Part shown: positions 4,225-57,939 of the stretch, in pieces | Numbering within the stretch: position 1 is the stretch's first letter | Layout: the number at the start of each line of letters is the position of its first letter | Source of the DNA: Amoebophrya sp. A120 | Taxonomy: Eukaryota; Protista; Dinoflagellata | Assembly: GCA_905178155.1 (NCBI GenBank) | Contig: CAJINV010000001.1 | Span: 3,463,675-3,527,674, forward strand | Direction: 5' to 3' | Length of the DNA: 64,000 bases | Program-made: the position numbers and the translations under genes | The notes under the pieces: generated by a model | Database searches by the model: none | The model's input: only the letters and a program-made list of their open reading frames with translations | Told to the model about the DNA's origin: nothing

Positions 4225-6693
4225 ATGGTTCGCCTTTCCGTCGCCTACGGCGAGAAGCACGAGCTGGAAAAGGAACACATCCTGGTCGCCTACCATGACA
4301 AAGTCTTCTACATACGAACCGTGGACTACTACCACACCACGAAGCCGACCAAGCAAAAGGTGCCCTTTCTGTGCGATGTGGGGAGCATGAAAAACACCTA
4401 TGGGAAGCTACCGAGGATGGACCAGCTGTCAGAAATACAGCACTTGATCAACGTATATTCAAAATTATGATAATTTTTGAAGATTAGTGTACTTGTGGCT
4501 TCCAGAAAAGTTATCTTTGTGATGCAAGTACACAGCGAGCAGCTTTTGGATTTGTCACACACTAAAAATGCATTTCATCGACTTCGCTCCTCCAGATTCC
4601 CGAGAAGAAGCTCCTGGTCACTGCGGATCAATCCGGCACGGTCGTCGTCACCGAAGGGCCGCCAAAGATGGATGTGATAAGAAGGGTCTGCACGGGCAGC
4701 GAAGTGTGCGCCATGGCCTACATAGAAAGTGCGGAGTTGAAGCCGTCACCGAAAAATCATGATTTCGGAATCCCGATGCTGGTGTACGCGTATAGGAGCA
4801 TATCAGGGGTTTATGGTATAGTAGAAAGTGTTGAACAAATTTCAAGATTAATTTTGTTGTGCCGGTCGTGGCGCATTTTGATTTTTAAGTACGACAGACA
4901 GTTACTCGCGCGCCATAAGAAGCGAGCAAAGGGTTGATTTTTAAGTACGAAGGAGCAGCAGCAGCGCGGAATGTGACTGCGTGTTGCACTGAGTGAATAC
5001 ATCGGGAGAAAGATCGAAAATTATCGCATACGAACAGGCGACGGCAAGAGCCGGATCCGATTCTGGAACTTTAAAGCGAACGAGATGCTGGCGGAAATCG
5101 ATCTCCCCTCGGAGTTGAACAACATTCTCTACTGTCAGGAGGTGAACGAGGTTCTCTGCTGTTGCCGAGCGGGCAAGATATGGAGAATTTCACCCGAACC
5201 GCTCAAGGGCAGGGGACCCGGGCAACCGACCCAGGAATTTCAGCTCGTGAAAAAAGACGTCAATCCTATGGACGTGGGGGAAATCGGCGATCACATCCTG
5301 AGGCTCTGGACATCAGGTGCTTAGATAGTACCACCTTCGTGTAGTTCTATTTGATGCGCGAGTACCAGAGGAGAAAGTTCTTGTCTTTGCTCAGTTCTTG
5401 CCACGATGAAAATTTGGAATTCAAACTTTCTTCACGCACACAACAGACGCCACCAAGCAAGCGGGTTGCCTTGCAGTTTCGCAGCAGGGTAAACTTAAAA
5501 TGTGGACGCTGGCGCCGGTGTTCGGTAGCTACTTGGAAGTCGACTGTCTCTACCACGTCGGGAACTGCACCAAAGCCGCCTTTCTGCACTACAAGAGAAC
5601 CAACCCATTATCGGTCACCGCGGAGGAGCAAAAGCGGTGCGAGCTCGAGGACGGGGACATGCTGATCATCGGCGGGGACGAACAAATTTCTTTCGTCAAC
5701 CCATACGACCTATCAAATGTAAAAATGTCTGGGTCTGGAAGGTTGGAACTTGTGATGCTAACTTTGGACTCTAAAAAATTCTGTATTGCATGACCAGCAA
5801 GAGGAGTCCGGTTTGTGCTACGCGTGGAGGGCATTTGTCATGCGAAATAAGCATCAGGAAGGCCTCTGAAAATCTGTGATGCTAGGGCTTCCATGGCAGA
5901 CATTATGCGTCATGCAAAAACAGCATAACAAATTTCGGATTCTTCCAGACCCAGACATTTTTACATTTGATACGACCTGGAAAAACCGTGCATGCGCCGC
6001 CTCGACTTCCGAGAAGGCGTCAGTTCGCTCACGCAGTGGAGGAACTTAGTGATGGTGGGGACGAAGTGCGGGTTGATAATCGGTATGACGAGCTAGTGGT
6101 GATGCAGATGTACTTAGTAGTTGCGTAGTATGATCCTTGTGGCTTTTTCTTCTAGGTGCAAAAATTGCAAGTAAGTAAGCTAACTGCCAAAAGAGCAGGA
6201 GGTCATCGTCCATTGTGAAGCAAAAACGCAGATGAAGTTGTTCCACCGTAAATGTTGAAAATCAGGCATCGACCCGTTTTCCGGGGTGCATCAGCTGAAG
6301 TTGCAGCTTGGGGTGAACGCGCCCATTGAGCAATTAGTCGGGGGCGTCGACGTTCTGCGGGCTGTGAACAGCCGGGGACGACTCGCAGTCTGGGCCTTGA
6401 AAGGCATCGACGTCGTCAGACTCGTGGAGCTCGAAGCAGAAAGCTGCGGCGTCTACAATGTTGGTACGGATGATCATATGTTCGGGCGGTGCGTGTTTAT
6501 TGTCACTAACTACCCAGAGCACGACGGAATTATGTATGATGTTGCCGTAGTTCATGGTAAATGCAAGAAAAAAAACGCGAAATATTAAACTCATCGTCCA
6601 GGTTCTTCTCAACTCCCCGCGGGCCACAATCACATCGGAGCGGGACCGCTAGAGGTCCACAGGCGCTTCGAAAAAGGACAAGACCGCTACTGA
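4225..6693 (+). CDS. WD40/beta-propeller-like protein, multi-exon
   Basis: Exon peptides LLVTADQSGTVVV, GDGKSRIRFWN, GKIWRI, GKLKMWT, GRLAVWAL resemble WD-repeat strands; 3' end approximate. Confidence 0.55.
5711..5972. mobile_element. TIR introner/MITE copy 2 (262 bp), TSD CGACC
   Basis: Perfect TIRs TATCAAATGTAAAAATGTCTGGGTCTGGAAG / CTTCCAGACCCAGACATTTTTACATTTGATA; CGACC at 5706-5710 and 5973-5977; removal gives NPYDLEKPCMRRLDF. Confidence 0.95.
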
Positions 6694-13099: not shown

Positions 13100-13695
13100 A
13101 AACTCTCAATTGTAGTTTTCGGTTCGTGCTTCCGCGGACACCGACACTTTTCTCTTTTCGCGACAAATGTCTTGTGTCATAAGAAAAGATACTTGGAAAG
13201 GGAATGGGAGTCGTAGTACTTACTCCTTGGGGATATTAAAAAGGCCTCTCTAACCGCTCTGAATGTACTGACCATGCGAGCCAAGAGGCCCAGAGTTAAA
13301 CACAGATATCATTATCACCCAAGTGAGCTTGCGCAGCTGAAGTGTAGGTCGGGCTCAAACGGGAGGACCTTTGTTTTGAAGGAAATTGATGTTCTAGTGG
13401 GATAGTTAGTCCCGATGTGGGCTGAAGAAAACTTCTTCTGGCAGTGTATAACCGATCATCATCCCTGAAAAGCAAAGCAGATAGAAAAAGGTGCTGCGGA
13501 GAGAGTGAGAGAAATGAAAGTTTTGGCGCGTACTTTTTTGTTCATTTCTTGAAGTGGCTTGTAGACTTACGTTTCGGTGTATTGGATATCGAATGTTTTG
13601 TTGAAATTCTTGAGAGCGCAGTTTAAAGGAGCAGATTTTTTGAAATGTAATGCTAGAAAAGCCCTGAAATTCACGAAGGTCAAAAATCATCCAAA

Positions 13696-30824: not shown

Positions 30825-33800
30825 TTGTCGCCGTTGACAATCATGTTGCATTCCTCCGCGTCGCTGTTGCAGCGGCGCGAGCTCGCGGAAGCGTTCCTCC
30901 AGCTCGGGCTCGGGGTCGTCGGCAGCCCTCCCGAGCGGAAGTTGTTCGTGACCCGAGTGCTAAACGGGACATGGGCGCACAAGACGAACTGCGTCGAGGT
31001 TGGCATGGAGGTGATTTCTGTTGCAGGGACCCGAGTGGAACAATTCCAGACGGTCACCGACCTGGTGCGCGCGATACAAACCATTCGCCCTTTGGAGATA
31101 AAGTTTGGCGTGCGCGATGTGGTTGCAAAAACGGCAAATGTGGCCGCGAAAAAGAACATGTTGCTCCTGGAATGCCTCCTGCCCTCCCCGCGCTTCCGAT
31201 CGCGCGGCGCGCCAGACTTGCAGGCCATTCTCGGCGTGAAGCTCTCGGCCAAACACTGCACGGGTACTGCCTCGACCAGCAGTTCCAGCAGCAGCACTTC
31301 CGGCAGCAGGTTCGAGTTCAAGCGGCTGGTCTTGTCGGGGGTCGAACCGAACGGGTTTGCCTACAGCGAGGGCTTGCAGGTCGGGGACGAACTGTTGAAG
31401 ATTGGAAATTTGTACCTCCCAGATTACCTTCCCATGACGCTGGAGTCAGTTTCCGAGTTCCTGGACGACCGCCACCGGCCGCTGATCCTGCAGGTGCGCA
31501 GACCCTTCAAACCGGGAATGCACGAATCGCTGAAGACCCTTCCAATATCAACTGCAAGGGACGAGGAGCACGAGGAGCGTTCGGCACCGGGTGCACCAGG
31601 TGGAGTTCTACTTGATTCGCAAAAACAAGAACAAGCCTATCCCCACCGCCTGGTGCGGTTTTCCTGCAAGAAGTTTCTTCCACAGACCGCGGAGGAGCAG
31701 AAGGCCGACCAGTTCAAGATGGGCCTGCGCATGCGGCAGGCGCCACCCGTGCGTGACTGGAGCGACATAACGGTGTTGGCGGTCACCCCGGGCACCTGGG
31801 GCGCGCTGCACACCCCCGTACAGGCCGGGGACATCCTGTTTGCCGTGAACGGGAAGCGGATTGCGAACCTCGCCCGCGTATCAAATGCAAAAATGTCTGG
31901 TTCTGGAAGAATGCGCGATTTGTCATGCAGCTTTTCCGTGACCCATGGCCATGAGGTCTGGAATGCAAGACCTAGCATGACAGATTCTGTGCGATCTTTC
32001 TCATGCCTATCCTGCATGAGAAACTGCCTTCCGACTTTGTCAAAACTGGACGACTTTTGGTAATCATGCAACACAGATTTTTGCATGCTTCAGATTTAGC
32101 ATGACAAGTTGCATTCTTCCAGACCCAGACACTTTTACATTTGGCACCGCGCGGAATTTTCCGGATTGCTGGTGCAGCCGGCAAAGGTGACCGCGGAAAA
32201 GGAGAAGTTTGCGGAGCTGACGTTCCTGCGCCCCATGTCGCGCGTCGAAGTGCCGTTCCTATCAAGTGTAAAAATGTCTGGGTCTGGAAGAATGCGCGAT
32301 TTGTCATGCTTCTCTGGCATGACTCTTAAATCTGTCATGCAGGTTACCCAAGAGCCCCACTTTCCTGTCATGCAAAAACGCAGTTTGTCATGCAGAATAG
32401 GCAACACCTAGAAGCTCAGAAACTTGTCATGCTGAGCCAGCACTTATGGCTTCCTCATGATACGCCACCCAGCATCACAAGTTTCCAGACCCAGACACTT
32501 TTACATTTGATAGTTCCCGGTGGGGGCCAACTGCGTGGTCTTGGATCGGGACTACAAAGTGCGGGAGGGCGATCCTGGTCGGATGGGCAGCAGCGGTTCC
32601 GACGGCGAAGACGAGGAGGACGAGGAAGTGGAGATGCTGTGGACCCCGGAGGCCGTCGTGAAGGAGGCCGCAAAGCAGGAGGCCGCGCGGAGGTTTGCCG
32701 TTTCCGACAGTGTGCCGTCCTCGCCAGCCGCGAGAGCAGCGAAGGCGAAGAGTGCAGCGGGAGCAGCTTCGGCTTCCGGGGCAACCACCAGAGCGGATGA
32801 AGAACCAGGCGCTCCTGCACAACCAGGGCCTGCCGTCTCATCTCCTTCTGCCGGCCGGGAGCTCCTGACGGTCGCTGTCGGCGAGGACCAAAGTGGGCGA
32901 GCGGTGCACGATTTAGGTCTTTCGCTGCATCGCCTGTCGCTCCACGATCGCATCTTCGTTTCGCACGTCGAGCCGGATGCCTGGGCCCAGCGGAACGGCG
33001 TTATGAGCGGTGCCGAGGTGCTCGCGATCAGCGAATGGCAGGTGAAAGACATGTTTGCCGGCGCGATGCGGGAGAAGGAGAGCAAAGACGGGGAGGACTT
33101 GGACCCTTTTGAGGAAAAGCGGCTGGAGCGAAGATTCATCTCCGTCGACAGTTTTCTCGCGTCGCAAGTCGCGAAACGCAGACCGCTCTTCCTTAACTTC
33201 GCGTTGCCGACGTTCTACACAGTGGACGCGGAGGAAGGCGAGCGCGTCTTGGGGTTCACGCCCCTCGACATGCCGCCGAGCGCGATGTACATCGACAAAG
33301 TGGAGGAATCCGGGTCGTGGGCGGCGCAAAAGGGCGTCTCCGCCGGCGACGAGCTGTTGCAGGTGGGGGGGAAGCCGGTAGCCGACATGGTGGAAAAAGA
33401 CGACCTCTACACCGCTATGACGGAAAGACCGACGACTTTCATGTTCGCAAAGCACGACGCGTTTTTCGCGCAGCTCGCTACTGGAAAGCAGGATGCGCAC
33501 GAGATAGAGGTAGTGCCGGATAGCACAGCGCCGCTTGATGAGGAACACGACGAAGAGGCGCATCATGCTGCTGCGCGTCACCACGTGGCGGCGGCGTCGA
33601 ATAAACCAAAGCACCACCGTCCGCACCATCACAGCCACCACCCGCGGCACCACCTGCCACATCACCGTAATGTTCACCAGGTTGCCGCCGGGAAAGATGA
33701 GGAAAAGGGAGAAGGTGTCGATCCAGGGTCCCACGTGGCTGTGCAGAGGAAAGTGCACGCGGAGAAAAAGCGATCGCAAACGGGGACTGTTGCGGACCAG

Positions 33801-43306: not shown

Positions 43307-43608
43307 TATTGCAATGCACTCAGCACATGCCCCAAGATCCAATACGAACGATCCAAAGTAGATAGCACGATAGTGAAAGATGGAAATGTGATGGTGATCA
43401 CATACTGAAGATGGAGATGATGATGAGGATAAGATGCATGGTATGCACCTCATGACACGAACAGGAGTAGCCTCAATGGCTAAAGAATAAGAGCATAAAG
43501 ATACCCCCACGCTAACCACGTAGGACCTTAAGTAGGTCAATAGACATTTTGTATTTTGTTCTACCTGGATCGTATTCTTTGTTGGGTCTTGGTCTTGTTA
43601 GGTCCACA
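43307..43608 (+). repeat. 5' LTR
   Basis: TATTGCAATG...GGTCCACA; 3 substitutions counted by eye versus the 3' LTR. Confidence 0.95.
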
Positions 43609-43609
43609 G

Positions 43610-43624
43610 AGTTATGAGCCCAAC
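43610..43624 (+). promoter_or_regulatory. Primer binding site, half-tRNA(iMet) type
   Basis: AGTTATGAGCCCAAC immediately after the 5' LTR; resembles the GGTTATGRGCCC PBS of copia/Ty5/Osser. Confidence 0.8.
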
Positions 43625-43718
43625 ATCTTAAGCTTGTAAGATTTCAAGTACAATTTACACCCATAAAATATCTGTAAGTAGAACTACAGCACCCCTATCC
43701 CCGCACGAAGAGAAAGGA

Positions 43719-45671
43719 ATGTATTTCCTCGCGCTCGCGCTGAGCATCGCCGTCGCCTCCGTATTCGCCGAGTATCCCAAGGTAGCAGCAACCGCAATGG
43801 CAGGCGGGGTGCGCAACCAGACGGGTCCGAAGCACGGACGGCTGAATGCGGGCGATCGCAAGCAGCGCAACAAGCTGAAGATCGCAAGTCGAGACCAGGA
43901 GACTTCTGCTCATGAGGAACAGGATGACGAGCAGGATGAATATGTTTACGATGAAGACAATCCTGACTTCGGCGATGAGGACGAGCAGCCCTGGGAAGCC
44001 CAGGAGCACGGCGGGGGATTCCCGGTGAACGGCCTGGGGTCGAGTGACAAAAATCAGGACTATGGTGGGTCTGGCGAGCCGTTTCGCCTACGCCCAAACT
44101 CAGGAAGGATTTTTATCTCAGGAAGCCCCGGTGGGAATCCGGGTGGATCAGGATCTTTTTATAGCGGCAACCAGCAACAGGCCCAGGCACCGCAGGAGCT
44201 GGAGCTGAAAAAGTTGCCGAAGTACAAGGACCAGACTTCGCTCTTCTACCGCTGGATCAATCTTGCAATGCAGAAATACCCCGCGGACTACGAGCGTATT
44301 TTGGATGGCCTGGAGGCCCGAGTCGAAAACTCGGTCGCGTTGTCTCGGTGGATGGAAATCATCGGTCGTGATGAAATTGCGCAGATGCAAAACGCAGAGC
44401 GGAAGCTGAAAGCCGCTCGGGATGCGTACAAGGAGCAGTGGGAGCAGGGTTCGGTCGCTGCGTCGATCTTGGAAAGCTACAAGCAGCAGGCGACGCAAAA
44501 GCCCTCGAATTTCCACGACGAGTTCATGAAGCGTGCTGCGAAGGTCGACAGCACGCAGGTTCCCGTGTCCGAACAGATTCGCATTATGGAAAATAACGCG
44601 CTTGGACATCTGCAGGCCGCGATGATTATGCTGAAGCCGGGCAACATGTCCGAAGTTGCCGAAGCCGTCAGTCGTGCCGACAAACTGCACCAGAAGCAGC
44701 CACCCCAGAAGAACACTGCTGGAGCCAACGCGCAAAATGGTGGAAATCAGCAGAGTTCGTTCTACACGAACCAAAATCAGGGCCAGTGGCAGCATGGTGG
44801 TAACGGCAAGCACAATGGCGGGAAAGGCAAGGGCCGCCGCGACTTTTGGAAAAAGAAGAAAGGCAAAGGTCGCAATGGGTGCAACAACTACCGGAACAAC
44901 TATCAGAACAATGGCGGTGGTGGTTGGAACAACAACTACAACCAACCGCAACAAGGTGGTGACCAGAATTACCATGCCCAAAACGCAAACTGGAATCAAC
45001 AGCAGCAGGGCAACTGGCAGAACCAGGGCGGTGGTCAGAGTTTTGCTGTGCAGCAGCCGCAGCAACAGCACAATCAGCCGCCGCAGCAGCAGATGATGAT
45101 CGCAAACCAGCCTTGGAACCAGAACCAACAGCCGAATCAGGTGCAGTACACCAACAACCATCCGCAACAGCAGGGTGGACAGTTTTTCGGAAGTTTCGTG
45201 GTTTTGGAAAAGAAGGAGTGGAGTTTTGCTGCTAGCCAACCCACGGGCACGCAGGAACGCAACCAGGGGGTTGCTACAAAGTGGGTTCTACTGGACTCTG
45301 GGTCGAGCCGCCACTTGACGGGGGACTTGGAGCTGGTTCACGAACACCGGAATACCCATGAGGAGTTGATTACTGCTAGCGATGCCGCAGCTGTCGCTAC
45401 TGGAGTGGGAAAAATGGTCGGTCAAGGTTTCGAGTGTAAGGATACACTTTTTGTCCCCTCGCTAGGGGAAAAGACCGTTTTGTCGATGCCCAAGCTGTTA
45501 GCCGCTGGCATTTATCCGAACTTTCAGTCGGGCACCTGCATGGGATATCCGATGCAGATACGCAACGGAATTCTACAGATGCAGTTGACATTCAAACTGA
45601 ATCAGATGGCTACTGATAGTGTGCTGTTTGTAAGCATCGGGGGAACTTCGCAGCTGGCGAACATCCTCTGA
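43719..45671 (+). CDS. gag: Gag-protease of copia element
   Basis: WVLLDSGSSRHLTG copia-type aspartic protease motif, preceded by a helical capsid-like region and a basic Q/N/G-rich region. Confidence 0.88.
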   Translation: MYFLALALSIAVASVFAEYPKVAATAMAGGVRNQTGPKHGRLNAGDRKQRNKLKIASRDQETSAHEEQDDEQDEYVYDEDNPDFGDEDEQPWEAQEHGGGFPVNGLGSSDKNQDYGGSGEPFRLRPNSGRIFISGSPGGNPGGSGSFYSGNQQQAQAPQELELKKLPKYKDQTSLFYRWINLAMQKYPADYERILDGLEARVENSVALSRWMEIIGRDEIAQMQNAERKLKAARDAYKEQWEQGSVAASILESYKQQATQKPSNFHDEFMKRAAKVDSTQVPVSEQIRIMENNALGHLQAAMIMLKPGNMSEVAEAVSRADKLHQKQPPQKNTAGANAQNGGNQQSSFYTNQNQGQWQHGGNGKHNGGKGKGRRDFWKKKKGKGRNGCNNYRNNYQNNGGGGWNNNYNQPQQGGDQNYHAQNANWNQQQQGNWQNQGGGQSFAVQQPQQQHNQPPQQQMMIANQPWNQNQQPNQVQYTNNHPQQQGGQFFGSFVVLEKKEWSFAASQPTGTQERNQGVATKWVLLDSGSSRHLTGDLELVHEHRNTHEELITASDAAAVATGVGKMVGQGFECKDTLFVPSLGEKTVLSMPKLLAAGIYPNFQSGTCMGYPMQIRNGILQMQLTFKLNQMATDSVLFVSIGGTSQLANIL

Positions 45672-48600
45672 CTATCCCACTCCACGCACGACGAGTACGC
45701 CGAATTTAGGCCGTACAGCTATGATTATGCTAATTCGCCGCTAGAAATTAATATTGATAGTGAAGACCTCAGCCAAGCCATTGCATGCATAATCGCACGC
45801 ATGTCGCCCAGTTTCAGTGGAAAGACGATTTTGCTTTACAAGTTTCGGGACGAAGATACCAAGCGAAAATTGCGTATTATCGAGTGTATGGTCGGTGAAG
45901 CGATTCCAATTCTCGATGGCAATCGCGCGCAGGAGTTTGTTGATGGCGGAAACTTTAGATGCTTTGCCGCTTCGCAAACTGATAAACGGGCTCGAGAAAT
46001 GTCAAGTGCAATTTCGCAAGTTTTTGACGTTTCTGTGAATCCGGGTCCTCCTAAAAAAGATTCCTCTCCCCCCTCGCCGGCATCGGTCGATGAGAATCTG
46101 AACAAAAGTTCAGGACCATCGAAAGATCCGACGGCAGCACGCAAGAAGAAAAAGAAAAAGGGGAAGAAAGTTCTGAAGAGGGTCAAGCCTGCCCGAAAGT
46201 ATCGGAAAGGCGTTGACACCACGCTGCGCCAACCCAAGGCGGGAATCTCGTATGAGAAAATCTGCCAACTTTCTTCGCGCCTGGTCTTCCCGACATTTCA
46301 GAAACTCTGGGAGGTTGTGAAGCAGATTGATTCCTCGCCAAAGGCTCGAAAAATGGTGATTGGTTTCTGCAAACACAATCTGAACCGTCTGAAAAATTAT
46401 GCTTTTCCGCATCACACCACTGGGGGCGTGGATGGCTTGAAGTTGTCTGATTTTACATCTTCGGATACATTTTTTCCTTTGGGGAAAAAGTACGCAGCAC
46501 TACACGCGATGAATTTGCATAGTCGTGCGAGCTACACAAAGACTTTGAAGCATGTGCCCAAAGCTTCGGATGCAGTTGAATTCTTAGAAAAGGTCAGGGG
46601 ACTCGGATTGCTAGGCCGGGCCCTCTTGTGCGACCAGGGTAAGGAATTTGACAACAGCCAAGTCAGATCGTATTTGCAGCGCCATGGGATTGCTCTTTAC
46701 CTAATTCCAAAAAGTAGTTGGGTCAATGGTTCGATCGAAAGACGCCATCGCACTTTTAGAGCGGTGCTAGAAAAGCTGTATTACATTTTTGGCCAGAGTG
46801 CGTCCTTGGTTCCACTTCTTGTGGAACAAGCGACCAATGCGGTGAACATGACCCCAACTCGGGCCTTGGATGGGTTGTGCCCATACCAAGCCCAATGGGC
46901 TTTGAATCCCTACGCGCTGGAGCCTGACGATCCTGAGTCTGCTACTCTGCAGCAGGCTGAGTTGATGGTCACTAAGGATGCCACCTGTGAGGCATACAAT
47001 GCGAGATGCAAGGCCAGGGCCGAAATTGAATCTCTGAAACAGGATAAGCAATTTATCTCTAAGATGAAGAAGCTTACCGAGATGCAGAGAAATTTTTATC
47101 CTCAAGCGGATAAGATTGAAGTTGATTCTTTGGTAGATATTTTCGACAAAAACTCGCATGCCTGGCTGGGACCTGCTAAGGCTATTTACAAGCAGACTAA
47201 TGCGAACTCCGTTACGTTTGTTGTAGATCACGATGGGAATTTTAAGCGAGTGCACGCGTCGCATGTGCGACAGCATCTGACTTTTGATCAGATGAATTTT
47301 CCTCCATCGCTCCTCCGTGTTGTCAGAAAAACACACGGCGAAAAAGTACCGAAAGAAGTTGACACATCAGAGCTGGTTCCAGTTAAAGTCAAATTTGAGT
47401 CGGCGTCGAAAGATTTCCAGTACGCGAAAAAGAATGCCAAAAAGCTGAAGGTGAAACGCAGGAAAGGGCGAAAGATATTCACTTCTTGCGCCCCGTTACT
47501 GATTTCCCCTGCGAGTTCTGAGATAGATTCATCCATGGCGCCTGTGATGCATCCTTCCCAGTCTCCAAAATTAGATGATGAGCTTTTGGGCGACGACGCT
47601 TTAGGCGGTTCCGCGGAGATCGGCGGGAATCTTGGCTCGAATTCCAATTCTACAAAGAATGCGGAAGTCGAATCCCATGCCCGACCGTCAGCGCCTAAGT
47701 TACGACTCACAAAAGATTACGCCAGAGATGTCTACCGTAATCTTGAAAAGAAAGAAAGAGAAAAGCTGAGACGGATAGCGGCCAATGCTGGCCCCGTCCG
47801 GGGAGCATGGAGAGAACGCAATGAAGCCATTGCTGAAATTCGTGAAGTTATTGACTCGCAGCCCATCTATGAACACATGAAAGAGCAGCAGAGGCAGAAA
47901 GTTGCTCAAGATTTGTTTCACCAAGCAAAAATCGATCCGCTAGGGCCGATTGAAAATGATGAGTCTTGCAGCTTCGTCATTCCGTTTTTGTGTCCCGATT
48001 GGGAGGAGCACGAAGTTGCTGTTTGTTTCAAAGCAACTATTGCTTCTGCCCCTGTTAAGGAGTCGGAAGTGGAATCGCAAGCAGATTGGCAGCAAGCCAT
48101 TACGAAAGAAGTTAATGCGCATTCGCATGTTTTCAGAGTTGCTAGGCAAAAAGAGGTCGATGAATGGGTCGCGGAAGGCAATAGATTTATTCCTTGCCGC
48201 ATGATCCTCAGTGTGAAAAGAGACCAACGCAAAAAGGCTCGAATCGTGTGCCTCGGTTACATGGACTATGTTTCTAGCCACGATGAGAAATTCGCTGAAG
48301 TGCCAGACCTATGCATTTTGCGTTTGCTTGTCGCTATTGCATGCCAGAATCCAAATATTTGCATGCTGCCCGCGGATGCCCGCAATGCATTTTTGCAGTC
48401 GCGCTACCCTGTTAAAGTTTTAGTTGCTCTCGACGAGCGTCTTCAAAAACTTTTAGGCTACAAGTATGCCGTTGTTTTGTATGCGCTCAACGGTTTGCGG
48501 TTGTCTCCCAAGGCGTGGGCTGTACACCGAGACCAAAAGTTGAGTGAGCATGGCTGGGCTAGGAATCCCTGTGAGCCAACGCTTTGGCATAGACAGGATG

Positions 48601-49616
48601 TAATTTTGGTAGTGTTTGTAGACAACTTTTGGCTCTTCGGACCGCGCGCCGCTTGTGAGCAAGCGCGAAAAGATTTGGAAGAACCTCTGCGACTTTTTCT
48701 TGAAGATGTCAAAGACACTGCAACGCATCGCACTTACGATTTGTTAGGCATTGAATTGATTCAAGATAAGAAAACTGGCGATGTAACTCTATCGCAGGAC
48801 GCCTATGTGACGAAGATTTTAGAGCGGTTCGGCGGGAATATCAGTGGCAAAGCTTTGGCATGCCCTATGATAACCGCTCCAGACCCTTCGTCCGAAGAAA
48901 AGCCTGAACTTGTGAAACTCAAGCAGGAATACTGTGGCTCTTTGAATTATCTTGCTACTAGCACTCGTATGGACATCGTAGTAGCACTAAAGTTCTGTGC
49001 TAAGGCTAAGGCCACGGAAGAAACTATCACCGCGCTAAAACGCATCTTCCGATACCTACGCACGAGGAGAGTGCTGGTTTACCGAAATCGCCAGGAAACG
49101 CTCAAAGGGAAACTGACACTGAGTGTATGGACGGACAGCGATTTTGGAGCACAAGAAGGCCGCCAATCTATCAGTGGAATCGTAGTGAACGTTTGTGGAT
49201 GCCCGATATTCTGGAGGGCAATTACGCAGTCGAGTGTGGCAACGTCGGTGACAGAAGCGGAAATTGTTTCTATGACTGATGGGGCTACGACTGTGTTGCG
49301 ATTTTACTATGTCATGAACACACTACAAAACTGGCTTGGTAACTACTTTCCTATTCCGAAGATTTCTTTACCGATTTCTCTGAAGTGTGACAATCAGGGA
49401 GGTCAAAAATATGCTTTGAATCGCACTGGTACTTCAGGACGCCTGAAGCATTTAGATGTACGCGTTTGTTGTATACGCGACGTAGTGGCGAGATCACTAC
49501 TGCTACCGATATATTTTGAAAGTGCCAAAAACAAGTCCAACGGATTAACGAAGATCACCACTGGATTTGAACACTCTTCGTTTTGTGATATGAGTGGAAT
49601 TGTTGAACTTCCATAA
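45672..49616 (+). CDS. pol: Integrase-reverse transcriptase-RNase H of copia element (same frame as gag-PR; first ATG 45801)
   Basis: CDQGKEF and NGSIERRHRT (integrase); KARIVCLGY, DARNAFLQ, ALNGLRLSPKAW (RT); WTDSDFG, SVTEAE, CDNQG, KHLDVR (RNase H). Confidence 0.93.
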   Translation, partial: LSHSTHDEYAEFRPYSYDYANSPLEINIDSEDLSQAIACIIARMSPSFSGKTILLYKFRDEDTKRKLRIIECMVGEAIPILDGNRAQEFVDGGNFRCFAASQTDKRAREMSSAISQVFDVSVNPGPPKKDSSPPSPASVDENLNKSSGPSKDPTAARKKKKKKGKKVLKRVKPARKYRKGVDTTLRQPKAGISYEKICQLSSRLVFPTFQKLWEVVKQIDSSPKARKMVIGFCKHNLNRLKNYAFPHHTTGGVDGLKLSDFTSSDTFFPLGKKYAALHAMNLHSRASYTKTLKHVPKASDAVEFLEKVRGLGLLGRALLCDQGKEFDNSQVRSYLQRHGIALYLIPKSSWVNGSIERRHRTFRAVLEKLYYIFGQSASLVPLLVEQATNAVNMTPTRALDGLCPYQAQWALNPYALEPDDPESATLQQAELMVTKDATCEAYNARCKARAEIESLKQDKQFISKMKKLTEMQRNFYPQADKIEVDSLVDIFDKNSHAWLGPAKAIYKQTNANSVTFVVDHDGNFKRVHASHVRQHLTFDQMNFPPSLLRVVRKTHGEKVPKEVDTSELVPVKVKFESASKDFQYAKKNAKKLKVKRRKGRKIFTSCAPLLISPASSEIDSSMAPVMHPSQSPKLDDELLGDDALGGSAEIGGNLGSNSNSTKNAEVESHARPSAPKLRLTKDYARDVYRNLEKKEREKLRRIAANAGPVRGAWRERNEAIAEIREVIDSQPIYEHMKEQQRQKVAQDLFHQAKIDPLGPIENDESCSFVIPFLCPDWEEHEVAVCFKATIASAPVKESEVESQADWQQAITKEVNAHSHVFRVARQKEVDEWVAEGNRFIPCRMILSVKRDQRKKARIVCLGYMDYVSSHDEKFAEVPDLCILRLLVAIACQNPNICMLPADARNAFLQSRYPVKVLVALDERLQKLLGYKYAVVLYALNGLRLSPKAWAVHRDQKLSEHGWARNPCEPTLWHRQDVILVVFVDNFWLFGPRAACEQARKDLEEPLRLFLEDVKDTATHRTYDLLGIELIQDKKTGDVTLSQDAYVTKILERFGGNISGKALACPMITAPDPSSEEKPELVKLKQEYCGSLNYLATSTRMDIVVALKFCAKAKATEETITALKRIFRYLRTRRVLVYRNRQETLKGKLTLSVWTDSDFGAQEGRQSISGIVVNVCGCPIFWRAITQSSVATSVTEAEIVSMTDGATTVLRFYYVMNTLQNWLGNYFPIPKISLPISLKCDNQGGQKYALNRTGTSGRLKHLDVRVCCIRDVVARSLLLPIYFESAKNKSNGLTKITTGFEHSSFCDMSGIVELP

Positions 49617-49903
49617 AAATTTCAGGTGCTAAGACGAGAACCGGGCTGAGCTTTTCGATCGTGGGTCGTCAGGGGTTTGACGAAAACACGATGAGAATCT
49701 AGCATCTTGGATGCTAAAACCGGTTAAAAGTCAGCATATGGGGGGCAGCTCGATTAAGCCCCATAAATGCGTAATAACATCGGTTGAAGCCCTTATTTGT
49801 TTGTAGGCTTATGCGAAAAGTGTTTTTCGATTTTCCTACTGCTTTAGGCTTTGAGAAGAAAAGTTTTTACGATTTGAAAATGGATTGATATTCGATTGGA
49901 CTT

Positions 49904-49917
49904 GGAGCAGGGGAGGC
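49904..49917 (+). promoter_or_regulatory. Polypurine tract
   Basis: GGAGCAGGGGAGGC directly before the 3' LTR. Confidence 0.8.
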
Positions 49918-50219
49918 TATTGCAATGCACTCAGCACATGCCCCAAGATCCAATACGAACGATCCAAAGTAGATAGCACGATAGTGAAAGATGGAATTGT
50001 GATGGTGATCACATACTGAAGATGGAGATGATGATGAGGATAAGATGCATGGTATGCACCTCATGACACGAACAGGAGTAGCCTCAATGGCTAAAGATTA
50101 AGAGCATAAAGATACCCCCACGCTAACCACGTAGGACCTTAAGTAGGTCAATAAACATTTTGTATTTTGTTCTACCTGGATCGTATTCTTTGTTGGGTCT
50201 TGGTCTTGTTAGGTCCACA
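49918..50219 (+). repeat. 3' LTR
   Basis: Near-identical direct repeat of 43307-43608. Confidence 0.95.
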
Positions 50220-50806
50220 TGTGTCGCCAGGGTGTCCCCTGACGCAGCCGAGCTTTTAAGTAACTTTGGAGCATTCGCGCTGTGCCTCGCACCGCCAGAG
50301 GGGCCGACTTGCGCCAGTGGGTACAGTTCAGGCGCCCTCCCTCATCCCGTGTGCCCATCGGGTTACCACAGCTTTGACGCGGCAGGTTGCGCAGCAGCAG
50401 GGAGCCGTAACATTTGCAGCCCGATCAACAACTACTGCGACGCGGACAAGTGCAAAGAGGTATGCTGTATCTCGAAGGACACGACGTGCAAGCCTTGCGA
50501 AAATGGTATGCACGGCGCTCCATCTGCTTGCACGGGTCCGGGCGAGGAAAACTGTGCTTCGTGCGACGAAGGCTACATTCTCCACGGCACTGCTTGTGTT
50601 CCAGTGGCCACCCCGTACGAAAATGATTGCGCTGGCTACAACAATACCGACGGCGAGATGCAGACGACTTTTCCCCTGGCTTTTGGCCGCAGTTTGCTGC
50701 TGCAGCAGTACTGCGGGCGGAATGACAGAGTGGCTGATAACATCCGATTTGAACACGGGCAACGCACTAATCGCGTGACGTACTATCGTCCGGCTGCCGG
50801 CAGAGG

Positions 50807-52073: not shown

Positions 52074-54991
52074 AGAGGGCGGGGAGCGGTTTATTTTTTC
52101 GCGATTTTTGGCCGACGATTGTGAGTGGCGGCGCGTACTGTCCTGGAAATGGTCTGCAAGATTCCACAGTCTCTGAGTTTAGCGCCAAGCACCCAACAAT
52201 GCCTGCCTTCGTCGCATTTAATGGTAGGTCCACCATTTTCGACGGATTGGGTCCTACATACGGCACTGCGTGTGCAGACAAGGCAAATTTCAATGGAACG
52301 TACACTCCTACATACGGAGACTTCCCGTCTTGGCTCAGCAAACAATACAACGTGTTCAGTTTCGTCACGGCCTTGAATCCGCCACCGAGCTACGCACCCG
52401 CCAAGGCACCAGACGTCACGAACGAAATTGCAATGTTTCACACGAACGGCCAGCTCTCGAGGCGTTCGTCGGTTGCTCGGTGTGCTGCTGACGAAGACAT
52501 GGTAGGCGGTGGCTGCGAACTCAACTGGGGAACCTTCGGCGGTGATGTCGACAAAAATTGTCTCTTGGCAGAGAGCCTGCCGGAAAATGACAGTTCCGGT
52601 GGACACGCCTGGAGGTGCACGTACGTGTGCACGGATGCTGTTACCGACGCCGCCATGCCTAACATCACTGCCACGGTCGTTTGCTTCGCTTCCAGCTTCT
52701 TTGACGTTTTCTTAGGGAGTTCTCGTCCGACATTGCGTCATTCGACCGACAAGGCCCGGTATGTGGTTTCCGGTAGTAACAAATTCGGACCCCAGGTAGA
52801 CGTCGCGTGCGCAGCGGGAGAGGTTCTGATTGCGGCGGGATGTGCTTACTGGAATAACGCTGCGCCGCAATACACAGGTCACTACAAAAAGCTGCGTGGC
52901 TGGCGAAACAAAACAAACGGATTAGACTGTGATCCTGGCGTGTGCCCTACTAACATCAAGCCTTTCAGCCACACTGCTGAAGAGTTGCCCGAATTGCTTG
53001 GGGTCGACCGACACGCTGACATGAAGACCGCAACATGCGGCGCGAGAGTATTTAAGCACGACACGAGCCTTCTCGAGAGCTTCGGAGCAGTCGCGCTATG
53101 CCTCGCGCCACCAGAGGGGCCGACTTGCGCCAGTGGATACAAATCAGGCGCCCTCGCTCATCCTGTGTGCCCATCGGGTTACCACAACTTTGACGTGGCA
53201 GATTGCGTAGCAGCAGGGAGCCGCAACATCTGCAGCCCAACGAACAACTACTGCGACGCGGACAAGTGCAAAAAAGTATGCTGTAACCCTGCAGCAACGA
53301 CCACTCCCCCTCCCGCAGTCAACGACACAGACTCGTCAGCAAGTGAAGACATCGCCGCCAGTGCGGGCGTGGGCAACCCACTGCTCTGGGTTGGAGTCGG
53401 TGGGGGAGTCGCCGTGCTGGCTCTTCTGTCGTGGTTCCTCTCCAGCCAAGCACGCGCGCACCCCATCTTCACCCAGGGGGGTAGTGGATATTACGGCGGC
53501 TACAACCAGAACGGCGGCTACGGCGACAACTACGGTTACGGTTCGGCGGGAACTCCTGCTTGGGAAGTAGCTCAACAAAATTACCAATACGGATACGGTG
53601 GGGCGGCTCCTGGAGGGGGACAGTATCAGCAAAGCTACCAGAATTACGGTGCCTACAACGGGCAAGAATACGCGCAGTACTAAAAGCGCTACTACTGATT
53701 TGGTTTTGCGATTTCTTGGCACCACTTGGCTTCTTTTCGCAAGCGCGGCGCGGATGTTGTTCGCCATAGAAGTGAATGAGCCAAGTTCATGCCAGAGGCG
53801 GGCGGAGTTTTTGGCTCTATGCGCCTGCCAAACACGAACACCGTTGGTCGTTACTGTGAAGCTATTTTTTTTTTTACTCTGACAAACAAACGTAACCAGA
53901 CCAAAAATGTTCTGGCGTCTTAGCTCTTGAGGAATACTATCAAAAATAGTCACGCAACCGTATGATCGAGATTCAAATGCGGACGATTATCGGACTTGTG
54001 ACGGGATGAAAAACAAAAGGCAAAAAATTATTAGAGCTAAAGAAATGACAGCTTTCCATCTTCGCAGTTGTCTCTCGCGATCGCGGAGAGGTGGAGCAAT
54101 ATTTATACATGTAAGTACGTCCTTTCTTGAACAAGTACGGAAGTTGTAGTCGGTTTCTCACCTCAGATTTCTGTCGAATGTTCCGCACAATTGAAAATCA
54201 TGAAAGAAAAAAGCGTCGATCGGGATCGAGATCCAAAATATCGGACGTGCGTTGAGATCACGTCTAGTTGTTTGACAATCGAGAAGTAGATCTGTTGCGA
54301 AGTATGGACACGTAGTTTTTATTGGGGAGGACAGATTAATTAATTTTCATTCTGATGCTGAATCTGAAATGCGAGTGCCACTGATTTCTCTTCGCTCCAA
54401 AAAGGACCCCAAGCAGAGAAGCGCAGTAGCGTGTCCCCTTGAGAAGTATTGCTTTTTTATTGACGAGGAGAAAAAAACTCGTGTATTATTTAGATGTACT
54501 TGAGTACCCGATCCCGATCATGATGAATCATTGCCGCCATCCCATCCGTACTAGTCATCTTGAGGTGACATGGTAGATCAAAAAGGAAATGCGAACAAAG
54601 AGCAAGTGAGTAGTCGGAATACATCCTCAAGAACTCTTTCTCTCTCTCTTTCGGGGACACACGCTCAATGACTCGTTGCGTGAATAATTATTCATCGTTC
54701 GTGAATCTGAAAGGTGTACACTATCAATGAATCCATCTTCCGCTGCACAGACCATTTCCTTGAAGAACTCTGGAATCAATATTTATTGACAGTAACAACT
54801 GAAAGTTCCGAAGGAGAAAACCTAGGGTTTTTTGCAAGTAGTTGTCCCAGTAAGATATATGGTTTAAAGTATTTCTAACTGCTGCAAGTTCTACTTCATT
54901 ATCACATTGCGCAACTAGCGACCAAGTACAACACTTACTTATCTTTCTACCGAACTGCATCGCAAGCGACCCAAACAAGTGAAACCAAGTC

Positions 54992-57939
54992 ATGACGGAC
55001 GACTGGGAGGATGATGATTTCGAAAAGCCCGTGAAGGCGGAGGGCGCCAGCGACGACGTATCAAATGTAAAAATGTCTGGGTCTGGAAGAGTCATGCTGT
55101 TTTTGCATGACGCACAAGGTCTGGCATGGAAGCTCTAGCGTCACAGGTTTCGCGAAGCTTCCGCAATGCCTAATCCGCATGACAGATCCCCCATTTTGGT
55201 GACAGAAAGTGGGCTACTTTTGCTACCTATGCATGAGAGATTTTTCTGTGTTTTGAAATGCGCATCACAAGTTGCATTCTTCCAGACCCAGACATTTTTA
55301 CATTTGGTACGACGATGATTGGGACAAATCGGAAGACGAAGATGCATATCAAATGCAAAAATGTCTGGGTCTGGAAGAGTCAAACTTGTGATGCTGCATT
55401 TGGATGCTAAAAAAACCTGTATTGCATGACCAGCAAGAGGATTCAAATTTGGCTACGCGGAGGGGGCATTTGTCATGCTGGATGCGCATAGATAAGCGCT
55501 CAAAAAATCTGTGATGCTATGGCATACATCACAGACATCATGGATCATGGAAAATGTGCATGACAAAGCTGTGCTCTTCCAGACCCAGACATTTTTGCAT
55601 TTGATAATGCACCGAAAAAGGCGAATTGGGACGACGATGACGAGGACGATTGGGACAAGGATACCACAAAACCTGTGGAAGAGCCCGTCGCAAAACCGGC
55701 ACCCGCTCCGAAGGGGCCCGCCGCGAAGTCAAAAGAGAAAGCCGAGGTATACATAGTCATTTTGCAAGAAAGGTTTCCGTTTGGTCGCATTTAGTAGGTG
55801 AATATGAAAATGCGTTTACTACAGCTGTGAGCTCCGTGTAATTTCTTGCGTGCAAGTCGGAATGGATATGATTCAGATTCTCTCGCGGAACAAACAAAAA
55901 GATCAACTTTGTACTACACGCAAAGAACACAAGAAACTCTCAATCAGATTTACGTCCCACTAGACGACCCTATTGCGGAGAAGGCACGGCTACGGCGGCT
56001 CCAAGAGGCGGCAGACGCGGTATGCATTGCAAAAGTGTCTGGGTCTGGAAGGATGCAACTTGTCATGCTAAGTCTGGATAGTGCAATATTTGTATTGCAT
56101 GATTACCAAAAGGTGTCCACGTTTGAACAAGTTTAGCGGTAGTTTGTCATGCAGGATAGACATGCTAGAGACTTCGCAGAACCTGTTATGCTAGCTCCTG
56201 CATTGCAGACCTCATGGGGCATGGAAAATATGCATGACAGGGTTGTATGTAGTGAGGTCACCGAACGGTTCTAACCAGGGAGGTTTTTTGACATATACCC
56301 TGAAAAACGACCGGCAGTTTTCAAGCGTCCGAAAGCGTTTTTTGACATAAAAAATTTCCAATTATTAAGCTGGCGGGGCTTTGAAGTCAAACAAGCCCGG
56401 TCGAAAACTACCGATTCGCACTTGATAAAACGACCCAGGGGAACCGGCAAAAGGGGCGCCCTTCTGACGCGCCCACCGCCTTGGTTTCTGGCGGTTTGGG
56501 CCGCCCAAAAAGTGGCGCGCAAAAAACTCGCCCAAAATCAGAACAGCGAAACAGCTTGGCACGGCCGCGATTTCGGAGCATTTTGGGCGGCCGCGAAAGC
56601 GGCCGCCTTTTCGCCGGTTCCAGAGCCTGGGAAGCTTCGCAAAAAGCGCCGGAGGGAAAGATAAAAACGCGAAAAAGAAAAAGCGCCCCGGACGCGCAAA
56701 GCCAATCCGCATGCTATGGGCCCGATTTTTCTTCGCTTTTTGGGCGCCCCCCGTGGCGCCCGGATCGGCTCCATAGCATGGGGGCTGGCTTTCGGAAAGG
56801 AATTTCGGAGATTTGCCAAAAGCTGCGACGTTTATCGAGCGGCCGCAACACCGTGCGGCCTAACGTTACTCACGGCGGTATGGCGAGCCCAGAAAAAGCA
56901 AGGCCGCGGCCAAGGCGATGGCCGGCAAGAAAACGCCCACGACCTCACTACCTCCGCCCCGGCGGCTATATTTGGTATTCTTCCAGACCCAGACATATTT
57001 GCAGTTCATACGCGGCCCTGGCGGACGATTTGTTCGCGGAGTTCACGAGGAAGGACTCGTCCCCGTCGAAGGCTGTGACGAGCGGCACCACCGCCGCGGC
57101 GTCGTCCAGTTCCCCCGCGAAAAAGCAGAAGCAGGCCGAGAAACAGGTGGTCAAGGACGAATGGGACGACTTTACGCTGGACACCGCCGACAAGGTGGTG
57201 GAGGTAATGGCCAAGATCCAGGGCAAGGTAGAGGAGGTGGAGAAGAAGGCATACATGAAAGGATGCATCAACAATCTACTGACCAAGCTGCTCGTCTGTG
57301 TCGCGGACAAAATCTCCCTCAGGGAAGCACAGGATCTAGAGAAGAAAGTGAAGGAAATTATCCGCGTCAGGGTACTCTTTTATTGGTGTATTTTTTCATC
57401 AACAATGAAGCATTTTCCGCGGCCCTTGGTGAATACATAATCAACTTCTGTTTGGTTTGTAAAATTTCTGATTCTCTTTGTTGCGACAATATCTAAACTT
57501 TCTTTTAGATGGCGTTTCTGAAAAAAACAACAAACTTGACGACGAAAACAGAAAGTGGAGCAGCAGACGGCACAAGCAGCGAAGACAAAAATAAATGCAG
57601 TGAATAAGAACACGAAGTTCGATGTGGCCGGCGCGCTTGACGAGCGATACGGCTATGACGACGAAGACTGGTACATGGCATAATCAGATAATCACTTCAA
57701 AGAACCCAATTTGGTTATTCACTATTGTGTTTTGTTGCTTCTACTGTTTCAATTCACGATTGATCATGCATTCTCAGCAATCTACTGCGTCTGCTAACTT
57801 GCAATTACAAATCAACAGGGACGAAGATGAGGAGTGGGAGGGCGAAGGAGGCTACTACGACGAAAGCGGCGCCTGGGTCGAAGGGTACTACAAGGAAGAC
57901 GGAACCTGGGTTACCACGAAAACCACGCCGGCGGCCTAG
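54992..57939 (+). CDS. EIF3J: Translation initiation factor eIF3 subunit j (Hcr1)
   Basis: MTDDWEDDDF...DDWD...NWDDDD acidic Trp motifs; LDDPIAEKARLRRLQEAADAALADDLF reconstituted after removing three TIR elements and conventional introns. Confidence 0.88.
55059..55309. mobile_element. TIR introner/MITE copy 5 (251 bp), TSD CGACG
   Basis: Same TIRs; CGACG at 55054-55058 and 55310-55314; interior partly reverse-complementary to copy 2. Confidence 0.94.
55347..55606. mobile_element. TIR introner/MITE copy 6 (260 bp), TSD ATGCA
   Basis: Same TIRs; ATGCA at 55342-55346 and 55607-55611; interior co-oriented with copy 2. Confidence 0.94.
56021..57010. mobile_element. TIR introner/MITE copy 7 (990 bp including nested insert), TSD CGCGG
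   Basis: Diverged TIRs TATGCATTGCAAAAGTGTCTGGGTCTGGAAG / CTTCCAGACCCAGACATATTTGCAGTTCATA; CGCGG at 56016-56020 and 57011-57015. Confidence 0.92.
56249..56978. mobile_element. Nested ~730 bp non-autonomous element with asymmetric inverted repeats and a 3' hairpin (Helentron/Helitron2-like)
   Basis: GTAGTGAGGTC 56249-56259 and GACCTCACTAC 56941-56951, then hairpin CCGCC-CC-GGCGG; removal restores the host GTTGTAT^TCTTCCAGACC and a 260-bp length. Confidence 0.7.

What the first reader, a model, noticed from the sequence alone, without database searches (positions are those of the whole stretch)
5711..57010. The introner copies occur in both orientations relative to transcription
Seen: the copy 5 interior (ATGCTGTTTTTGCATGACGCA...CATGGAAGC) is the reverse complement of the 3' part of copy 2. 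Copy 3 is the reverse complement of copy 7, while copies 2 and 6 are co-oriented. All host genes are on +, and eIF3j carries both orientations. Inference: the removal signal is symmetric, i.e. the TIR stem that juxtaposes the two TSDs, rather than a polar branch point/polypyrimidine tract. That is atypical for spliceosomal introns.
Basis: partly seen in the sequence, partly recalled or inferred. Interest (0 to 1): 0.8.

Follow-up and report, generated by a model that had tools for sequence, protein, structure and literature searches.

The report
Reversible transposon introns in parasite genes
In the marine parasite Amoebophrya A120, copies of an already described hairpin-ended mobile intron sit in genes facing either way, and in one gene copies facing both ways are missing exactly from the transcript assembly, likely because the cutting signals lie in the mirror-image ends and are likely paired up in the order they are transcribed rather than by the most stable fold.

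Summary
Observation confirmed. Seven copies of one ~260-nt family (30-33-nt terminal inverted repeats, exact 5-bp duplications) lie in + strand genes, four facing one way and three the other. The genome is Amoebophrya sp. A120 (eIF3j equals CAD7923720.1), so these are the published introner elements (PMC7789003). An RNA-like contig lacks eIF3j copies 5, 6 and 7 (both orientations) to the base, with no GT-AG option. In a related assembly, 71 exonic copies split 39:32 and 40 of 41 restore the frame. It does not show that the stem is the signal. G.U and A.C mismatches are equal (53:53), and copies 5 and 6 are predicted to cross-pair at equilibrium (24 kcal/mol better), yet the 32-nt exon between them is kept. 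Best reading: a relaxed spliceosome reads the arms in transcription order (0.55). Either-orientation introners with canonical sites are known (Polarella, Aureococcus). I did not find orientation-blindness of Amoebophrya introners in print, but this scan noted it before on other DNA of this genome. Efficiency by orientation was not measurable.

The parts
3215..3467 (-). copy 1, orientation B; 5-bp duplication 3210-3214 / 3468-3472; host ORF on + (unnamed)
5711..5972 (+). copy 2, orientation A (reference orientation); duplication 5706-5710 / 5973-5977; host ORF on + (unnamed)
31879..32146 (-). copy 3, orientation B, in a multi-PDZ gene; right terminus altered at arm positions 2-3; duplication 31874-31878 / 32147-32151
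   Evidence: gene not covered by RNA contigs
32260..32512 (+). copy 4, orientation A, same PDZ gene, 113 nt after copy 3; duplication 32255-32259 / 32513-32517
54992..57939 (+). eIF3j gene (300 aa, PF08597): 3 element introns and 3 GT-AG introns (201, 180, 148 nt)
   Evidence: joints translate exactly to CAD7923720.1
55059..55309 (-). copy 5, orientation B, in eIF3j; duplication 55054-55058 / 55310-55314; 256 nt skipped in the RNA-like contig
55310..55346 (+). 37 nt between copies 5 and 6 (32 nt of net coding sequence), kept in the mRNA; enclosed by the predicted cross-paired hairpin 5R-6L
   Evidence: (I11)
55347..55606 (+). copy 6, orientation A, in eIF3j; duplication 55342-55346 / 55607-55611; 265 nt skipped
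56021..57010 (+). copy 7, orientation A, in eIF3j, enlarged by a nested insert; duplication 56016-56020 / 57011-57015; 995 nt skipped
56249..56973 (.). nested ~725-nt repeat just inside the right arm of copy 7 (11-nt inverted repeat 56249-56259 / 56941-56951, small hairpin near its end); right boundary approximate
   Evidence: (tables 3, 7)

Best explanation
These are MITE-like introner elements of Amoebophrya A120 that sit in coding exons in either orientation and, in eIF3j, are missing from the transcript contig together with exactly one 5-bp duplication; they likely inserted by a DNA transposase at random orientation and are likely cut out of the pre-mRNA by a relaxed host spliceosome that would read the first-made arm as the 5' signal and the next arm as the 3' signal, with the predicted hairpin as a transient aid. 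Shown: anatomy, both orientations at about 50:50, exact removal of three copies, no GT-AG need, frame restoration in both orientations. Inferred: transposase insertion (inverted repeats plus 5-bp duplication; no autonomous partner found); all cis-signals within the ~30-nt arms; partner choice made during transcription, since the most stable predicted fold pairs the wrong arms; two cut offsets totalling 5 nt. The 1+4 split comes from earlier AI notes and is only weakly tested here. Untested: which enzyme cuts.
For: RNA-like contig (2013 nt, 0 other letters in listed pieces) skips c5 (B, 256), c6 (A, 265), c7 (A, 995) and three GT-AG introns; the result equals the A120 protein CAD7923720.1. Removed lengths are not multiples of 3 and retained copies carry stops in all three + frames, so an intact eIF3j needs removal. 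Related assembly: 39 A: 32 B relative to host strand among 71 (binomial p 0.48); independent-flank frame test 40 of 41, A 22 of 23, B 18 of 18; 19 of 28 contigs with 2+ copies hold both orientations. The 5' and 3' arms as met by the transcript have near-identical base counts; positions 1-2 are invariant in 71 of 71 at both ends while positions 4, 5, 7 often mismatch. This is more like a sequence motif than a selected helix. Cross-pairing beats own-arm pairing by 24.2 kcal/mol for c5+c6 and 24.3 for c3+c4, and on both strands in 8 of 11 neighbour pairs elsewhere, yet the c5/c6 exon is kept. A 725-nt insert in c7 does not prevent exact removal. The host has most spliceosome proteins and U2/U4/U5/U6 but no detected U1 (PMC7789003 section 10). 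In one diverged-duplication copy (L055, orientation A) the A120 protein matches the left copy at positions 1-2, so at least 2 left bases stay exonic, as a 1+4 cut predicts.
Against: No lariat, branch point or snRNP evidence. No invariant canonical branch motif: a yUnAy with A at -10 is in only 24 of 71 copies, CTRAY in 1 of 71. Every copy folds into a strong terminal stem on both strands (z about -9), which would hide linear signals unless unwound and fits a stem-reading enzyme as well. Positions 10 and 14 do covary between arms (86 vs 66.7 and 88 vs 70.2 expected of 123), which may be subfamily history or pairing. The register test was weak: GT..AG at the 1+4 register in 4 of 71 vs 1.3 expected, p 0.045 uncorrected; L055 is one copy from another strain, and no informative B-oriented diverged copy was found. 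Equilibrium folds are predictions, and contigs drop rare isoforms, so some exon skipping could exist unseen. RNA support covers 3 of 7 copies, one contig in one run whose RNA status is a guess.
Confidence: 0.55

Rival explanations
1. The hairpin itself is the substrate: a spliceosome-independent (or dedicated) endonuclease/ligase measures from the base of the co-transcriptionally formed stem and releases a linear or circular intron, as proposed for Euglena nonconventional introns.
For: Strong terminal stems in all 7 copies on both strands; no GT-AG, no polar pyrimidine tract, no invariant branch motif; covariation at arm positions 10 and 14; U1 not detected in A120; Euglena introns with terminal repeats are proposed to be removed through hairpins and circles (PMC12501133 discussion passages; PMC11282704 passages).
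Against: G.U equals A.C on the sense strand (53:53; A copies 38:30, B copies 15:23); positions 4, 5, 7 near the stem base often mismatch, with no covariation; the most stable fold pairs the wrong arms for close neighbours, so extra kinetics are needed.
Confidence: 0.3
2. The elements are excised from DNA at some life stage (like TA-bounded ciliate IESs, recalled), so orientation does not matter and the transcript comes from an empty template; or the RNA sample's strain simply lacks these three insertions.
For: Symmetric TA...TA ends and exact loss of element plus one duplication; the DNA-like run (sample S3) and the RNA-like run X3 (sample S2) are different samples.
Against: DNA-like contigs of X5 run from unique flank into the arms of c3 and c4 at the single-copy depth of 43-44, and none of the 15 joints shown (of 45) is a whole-element skip; the X3 contig has no other letters against the window; X3 holds element-flank junctions from other loci (table 7); the published introns were called from RNA-seq of this strain.
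Confidence: 0.07
3. Reverse-transcriptase template switching across a stable hairpin flanked by direct repeats (a known cDNA artefact, recalled) creates the apparent junctions.
For: The junction geometry (hairpin plus short direct repeat, non-canonical ends) is the one such artefacts give; all RNA evidence here is assembled short-read contigs.
Against: Retained copies would put stops or frameshifts into eIF3j and into most host exons, yet coding signal continues in frame on both sides in 40 of 41 copies; a 995-nt skip is exact; cDNA skipping along the most stable fold would be expected to drop the 32-nt exon, which is kept.
Confidence: 0.04
4. Each orientation uses its own cryptic canonical GT-AG sites and branch point.
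For: GT..AG is possible at some equivalent junction in 7 of 71 copies.
Against: Exact removal lengths leave no GT-AG option for c5, c6, c7; 64 of 71 copies have none; no register is mostly GT or mostly AG.
Confidence: 0.03

Closest known systems
Introner elements (IEs) / non-canonical introns of Amoebophrya sp. A120 (Farhat et al. 2021, PMC7789003; seen: abstract, sections 10, 11, 12, 16, keyword passages, keyword passages of the one supplement held)
   Same: Same organism; inverted plus 3-5-nt direct repeats; the A120 motif TAT + 7 nt + at least three A; ~240-nt mean length; hairpin model with joined exon ends; non-GT-AG ends.
   Different: In what I read the paper does not address element orientation relative to the gene (its 'orientation' hits concern genes), leaves splice positions as variable/unknown, and does not consider cross-pairing of neighbours. 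The arms here (30-33 nt) are longer than the 8-20 nt motifs it lists. Supplementary figures (S19-S25) are images that I could not see.
Polarella glacialis ILE classes (2, 3, 6, 7, 8, 10) and Aureococcus introners (bioRxiv 10.1101/2020.10.14.339549, passages; PMC9860276, passages)
   Same: TIR/TSD DNA-transposon introners that make introns in either orientation.
   Different: Those take GT/GC/GA and AG sites from the element or the duplication, and the preprint notes a bias to one orientation; here no fixed dinucleotide is needed and the split is 39:32.
Euglenid nonconventional introns (PMC12501133 abstract and discussion passages; PMC11282704 passages)
   Same: Non-GT-AG ends, terminal inverted repeats, MITE origin proposed, hairpin thought to join the ends.
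   Different: They need a CDG/CH'G signature at fixed distances and a purine exon start, absent here; unrelated lineage; circles shown there, untested here.
Fritillarid tunicate non-canonical introns (PMC11282704 passages; PMC13326754 search listing and one keyword passage)
   Same: MITE-derived non-GT-AG introns handled by a modified spliceosome: the precedent for the best explanation.
   Different: They keep preferred end dinucleotides (AG-AC, AG-AT); here the ends depend on the random duplication.

Membership tests
Amoebophrya A120 introner elements (PMC7789003) | Lies in the A120 genome | tested here: met
   Spliced eIF3j is identical to CAD7923720.1, named Amoebophrya sp. A120
Amoebophrya A120 introner elements (PMC7789003) | Terminal inverted repeats starting TAT, 7 variable bases, 3 or more A | tested here: met
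   against section 11; the right ends of c3 and c5 deviate at positions 2-3
Amoebophrya A120 introner elements (PMC7789003) | 3-5-nt direct repeats at the exon/intron borders | tested here: met
   exact 5-bp duplication in 7 of 7; 125 of 169 paired candidates elsewhere
Amoebophrya A120 introner elements (PMC7789003) | Repeated family, removed from RNA, non-GT-AG | tested here: met
   (3 of 7 copies)
Amoebophrya A120 introner elements (PMC7789003) | Assignment to one of the 1954 published families | not tested
   family table and profiles not examined
Canonical-site introners (Aureococcus / Polarella type) | GT/GC/GA donor and AG acceptor supplied by element or duplication | tested here: not met
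   0 of 7 window copies; GT..AG 7, GA..AG 7, GC..AG 0 of 71 at any equivalent junction
Canonical-site introners (Aureococcus / Polarella type) | Intron formation in either orientation (some classes) | tested here: met
U2 spliceosomal intron | GT...AG ends | tested here: not met
U2 spliceosomal intron | Polar branch motif and pyrimidine tract | tested here: inconclusive
   no pyrimidine excess inside the 3' arm; yUnAy with A at -10 in 24 of 71 and at -3 in 54 of 71, neither invariant
U2 spliceosomal intron | Lariat intermediate and snRNP dependence | not testable with these tools
   no raw reads of this strain covered the locus
Euglenid nonconventional intron | N3-CDG ... CH'G-N5-6 signature with purine exon start | tested here: not met
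   arm sequence read directly against the abstract of PMC12501133
Euglenid nonconventional intron | Terminal RNA stem | tested here: inconclusive
   predicted for single copies but no sign of selection for pairing and a competing fold
MITE (non-autonomous TIR DNA transposon) | Short, TIRs, fixed-length TSD, non-coding, many dispersed copies | tested here: met
MITE (non-autonomous TIR DNA transposon) | Autonomous partner with a transposase sharing the TIRs | tested here: inconclusive
   12 ORFs beside unpaired arms gave no transposase family; only 183 loci were seen and no whole genome was held

The most novel reading that the evidence does not exclude
Amoebophrya A120 removes thousands of transposon copies from its mRNAs with an orientation-blind, GT-AG-free machine that is not the ordinary spliceosome reaction: it pairs each arm with the next arm made during transcription, overrides the more stable cross-fold, and cuts by a fixed 5-nt ruler, so that any new insertion of the family in either direction is born as a perfect intron. 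The copy 5/6 pair in eIF3j is a natural test of it.
Probability: 0.25. Interest if true: 0.85.

Novelty: already known. Interest (0 to 1): 0.42.

Why it matters
The elements are published, but how Amoebophrya removes its non-canonical introns (over 60% of all its introns) is stated as open in PMC7789003. Orientation-blindness confines every needed signal to about 30 nt at each end and doubles the share of insertions that are harmless, which helps explain the scale of the invasion. The oppositely oriented pair around a 32-nt exon in eIF3j separates the models: the most stable fold predicts skipping or back-splicing of that exon, while order-of-transcription reading predicts inclusion, which is what the contig and the gene model show. 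It gives a small, concrete reporter for deciding between a relaxed spliceosome and a stem-cutting enzyme.

Tried and rejected
No whole genome was held, so a genome-wide table for A120 itself was not possible; contigs behind the loci could not be extended. No RNA holder was listed as on record; raw-read runs X9-X11 laid only 9, 3 and 1 partial reads, so splicing efficiency by orientation, retention and lariats could not be measured, and contig depth is flat. The PDZ gene (copies 3, 4) had no RNA contig across the elements, and no own gene model was found (limited to 2000 aa, best hit 33% identity): no verdict for c3/c4. A generic scan for other TIR/duplication families in the window gave 27 hits against 9-14 in shuffles; it recovered only four of the seven copies through chance inner or shifted repeats and showed no clear second family. 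Rfam gave only sub-threshold hairpin matches. Search for an autonomous partner: none; the long ORF of L046 is a host gene next to a copy with a damaged right arm. Cut register from diverged duplications: 15 of 17 candidates examined, most differences synonymous or strand uncertain (the low-score strand call for L002 is probably wrong), one informative case (L055). Duplication composition gave no strong register signal. Rejected: in-frame translation of copies 1-4 (removed lengths are multiples of 3, but all three + frames hold stops); pairing of the two duplications (they are direct repeats).


Full report
What was checked. The repeat scan and an anchored search found seven copies of one family in the window: 3215-3467, 5711-5972, 31879-32146, 32260-32512, 55059-55309, 55347-55606 and 56021-57010. 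Six are 251-268 nt; the seventh is 990 nt because of a nested insert. Each has arms of about 30-33 nt and an exact 5-bp flanking duplication (7 of 7). After trimming 34 nt from each end, interiors align well on only one strand for the pairs that link the copies: c2-c5 21 same / 103 opposite, c3-c7 24/164, c2-c6 168/25, c1-c4 22/96, c3-c5 65/19, against shuffle maxima of 18-27. Some pairs (such as c1-c3, c1-c5, c2-c4, c4-c6) are uninformative on both strands, but the informative ones are consistent. Copies 2, 4, 6, 7 face one way (A), copies 1, 3, 5 the other (B); the joint alignment has 72% mean column identity. Removing each element plus one duplication opens a + strand frame in all seven, while the retained element has stops in all three + frames.

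What the genome is. One exon of the gene holding copies 5-7 is 100% identical to a 300-aa protein named Amoebophrya sp. A120 (CAD7923720.1), which hits Pfam eIF3_subunit above its cut-off. The arms start with TAT, seven variable bases and a run of A, the motif given for A120 introner elements in PMC7789003 section 11. These are therefore the published introner elements. That paper (abstract, sections 10-12 and 16, keyword passages, and keyword passages of its one held supplement) describes inverted and direct repeats, a hairpin that joins the exon ends, no detected U1, and an open mechanism. Its uses of 'orientation' that I saw concern genes, not elements; its supplementary figures are images I could not see.

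Are both orientations removed? A 2013-nt contig of run X3 skips 256 nt (copy 5, B), 265 nt (copy 6, A) and 995 nt (copy 7, A), each equal to element plus 5, and also three GT-AG introns of 201, 180 and 148 nt, with no other letters in the listed pieces. X3 is only guessed to be RNA, but it and X1 skip GT-AG introns that the X5 and X7 contigs do not skip. Joined at these joints the window translates exactly to CAD7923720.1; that model may rest on related RNA data, so it is not fully independent. No equivalent junction of any of the seven copies reads GT..AG. In the DNA-like run X5, long contigs run from unique flank into the arms of copies 3 and 4 at depth 43-44, so the filled form is the main DNA form in that sample, which is not X3's sample.

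Beyond the window. A pattern scan returned 183 loci (from 10 of 64 parts of the collection; about 790 stretches estimated), all on contigs of assembly JACKZZ01. The one gene tested there is 95% identical to its A120 counterpart, so this is likely a related strain. Pairing arms gave 169 candidates, 125 with an exact 5-bp duplication at the fixed anchor; the 44 others (diverged, indel-shifted or mis-paired) were dropped. A codon model trained on 8162 window codons called the host strand for 73 of 125; 2 lacked an orientation call, leaving 71: 39 A and 32 B relative to transcription (p 0.48; 95% interval 0.43-0.67). Stricter cuts gave 25:20, 16:12, 10:8 and 4:2. Strand calls were right in 115 of 115 called held-out windows (125 of 240 uncalled; an optimistic control, taken from long ORFs), and same-contig calls agreed in 21 of 23 pairs. 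Without any strand call, same-contig copies were co-oriented in 25 pairs and opposite in 33, and 19 of 28 contigs with two or more copies held both orientations. Where both flanks gave an independent frame, removal of element plus one duplication kept the frame in 40 of 41 (A 22 of 23, B 18 of 18); this test is blind to errors of 3 nt. GT..AG was possible at any equivalent junction in only 7 of 71. The three largest similarity clusters each held both orientations (8:6, 3:9, 5:1 for B:A). The scan pattern needed one exact arm, so the sample leans to well-kept arms.

What the signal is. Because the two arms are mirror images, the transcript meets the same 5' and 3' sequences whichever way the element faces; base counts at host-5' and host-3' arms are nearly identical. 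Orientation-blindness thus places the signals in the arms and makes the interior dispensable (pyrimidine fraction just inside the 3' arm 0.49 for A, 0.50 for B; a 725-nt insert is tolerated). It does not decide between a stem and linear motifs. Three tests bear on the stem. First, single copies fold into strong terminal stems (-120.3 and -117.6 kcal/mol, z -9.2 and -8.5), on either strand. Second, if pairing on the sense strand were selected, mismatches should be G.U more often than A.C; they are 53 and 53 in 71 copies (A 38:30, B 15:23; window 6:4). Among 123 copies the arms covary at positions 10 and 14 (86 vs 66.7, 88 vs 70.2 expected) but not at 4, 5, 7 or 15, while positions 1-2 are invariant at both ends in 71 of 71. 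Third, copies 5 and 6 face each other across 37 nt, so the most stable fold pairs 5L with 6R and 5R with 6L (-271.9 vs -247.7 kcal/mol for own-arm pairing); copies 3 and 4 behave the same (-297.9 vs -273.6). Cross-pairing is favoured on both strands in 8 of 11 neighbour pairs elsewhere, on one strand in 2 and on neither in 1, by up to 64 kcal/mol for opposite neighbours. Cutting by that fold would drop 32 coding nt and shift the frame, yet the exon is kept. So partners are likely chosen as the RNA is made, either by first-come folding or by factors that bind the arms in order. The two duplications cannot pair; any cut whose offsets total five bases restores the gene. Earlier AI notes on other pieces of this genome propose one base before and four after the element. 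My window copies cannot test this, as their duplications are intact. One diverged copy (L055, A) fits it: the A120 protein matches the left duplication at positions 1-2. The composition test was weak (4 of 71 vs 1.3 expected). Under that register the second intron base would always be U, as in GU and AU donors; no invariant branch motif was found.

Mechanism. Most likely (0.55): a DNA transposase inserts the element either way with a 5-bp duplication (inferred; no partner found), and a relaxed spliceosome reads the first arm as donor and the next as acceptor region, helped by a transient hairpin, with a fixed ruler. The precedent is the MITE-derived non-canonical introns of fritillarids (PMC11282704 passages). 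Main rival (0.3): a stem-cutting endonuclease/ligase as proposed for Euglena (PMC12501133 passages). DNA-level excision or an empty allele (0.07), cDNA template switching (0.04) and cryptic canonical sites (0.03) are unlikely; the ciliate IES and template-switching comparisons are recalled, not from a call.

Novelty. The elements are known. Either-orientation intron creation is in print for several Polarella classes and for Aureococcus, with canonical-type sites and an orientation bias (bioRxiv 10.1101/2020.10.14.339549 passages). Seven paper searches and keyword reads of PMC12130899, PMC9860276, PMC11282704, PMC11453091 and PMC13326754 showed no statement on orientation of Amoebophrya introners; the library lacks most subscription papers. 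This scan noted the same orientation-blindness on other DNA of this genome. What this window adds is a counted 39:32 split with a frame test, the equal G.U/A.C count, and the cross-pairing case in eIF3j. Verdict: real, a published class, an expected but apparently unprinted property, and useful as a test of an open mechanism. Interest 0.42.

Noticed in passing
window 56249-~56973: A ~725-nt repeat nested just inside the right arm of copy 7: 11-nt inverted repeat at its start and ~25 nt before its end, then a small G+C hairpin; about 4 nt appear duplicated around it. The layout resembles Helentron/DINE-type non-autonomous elements (recalled). Other copies show in X3 contigs; no match in the 183 loci. 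It is spliced out with its host, which would make the introner a safe landing site.
   Followed up: partly
window 41421-50217: Copia-like LTR retroelement: ORFs with integrase (rve, weak) and RVT_2 (9.8e-15) in that order, a weak Pol beta-barrel hit, and a 300-nt 99% direct repeat at 43307-43606 / 49918-50217.
   Followed up: no
window 32146 (copy 3 right end): Copy 3 has lost the otherwise invariant terminal TA at its right end and has three A.C mismatches, in a large PDZ gene not covered by the RNA contigs; whether it is still removed exactly is a test of the terminal bases.
   Followed up: partly
window 30729-~40836: Very large multi-PDZ gene (ORFs of 383, 2179 and 669 aa with PDZ hits); no close relative found.
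   Followed up: partly
window copies and L001-L183: Interiors carry several short subterminal repeats that point inward from both arms, typical of transposase-binding sites (inferred); arm positions 4-7 come in a few discrete variants whose frequency differs between the element's own left and right ends but not between host 5' and 3' ends.
   Followed up: no
window 50264-50469 / 53080-53285 and 42440-42715 / 52111-52386: Paralogous coding repeats (206 nt at 90%; shorter 79-82% matches) between ORFs flanking the retroelement, suggesting a local gene duplication.
   Followed up: no
X5 depth over 31505-32707: Summed contig depth over the elements is thousands of times the flank depth of about 44; the tool warns this is no copy number, but it fits a very large family.
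   Followed up: no
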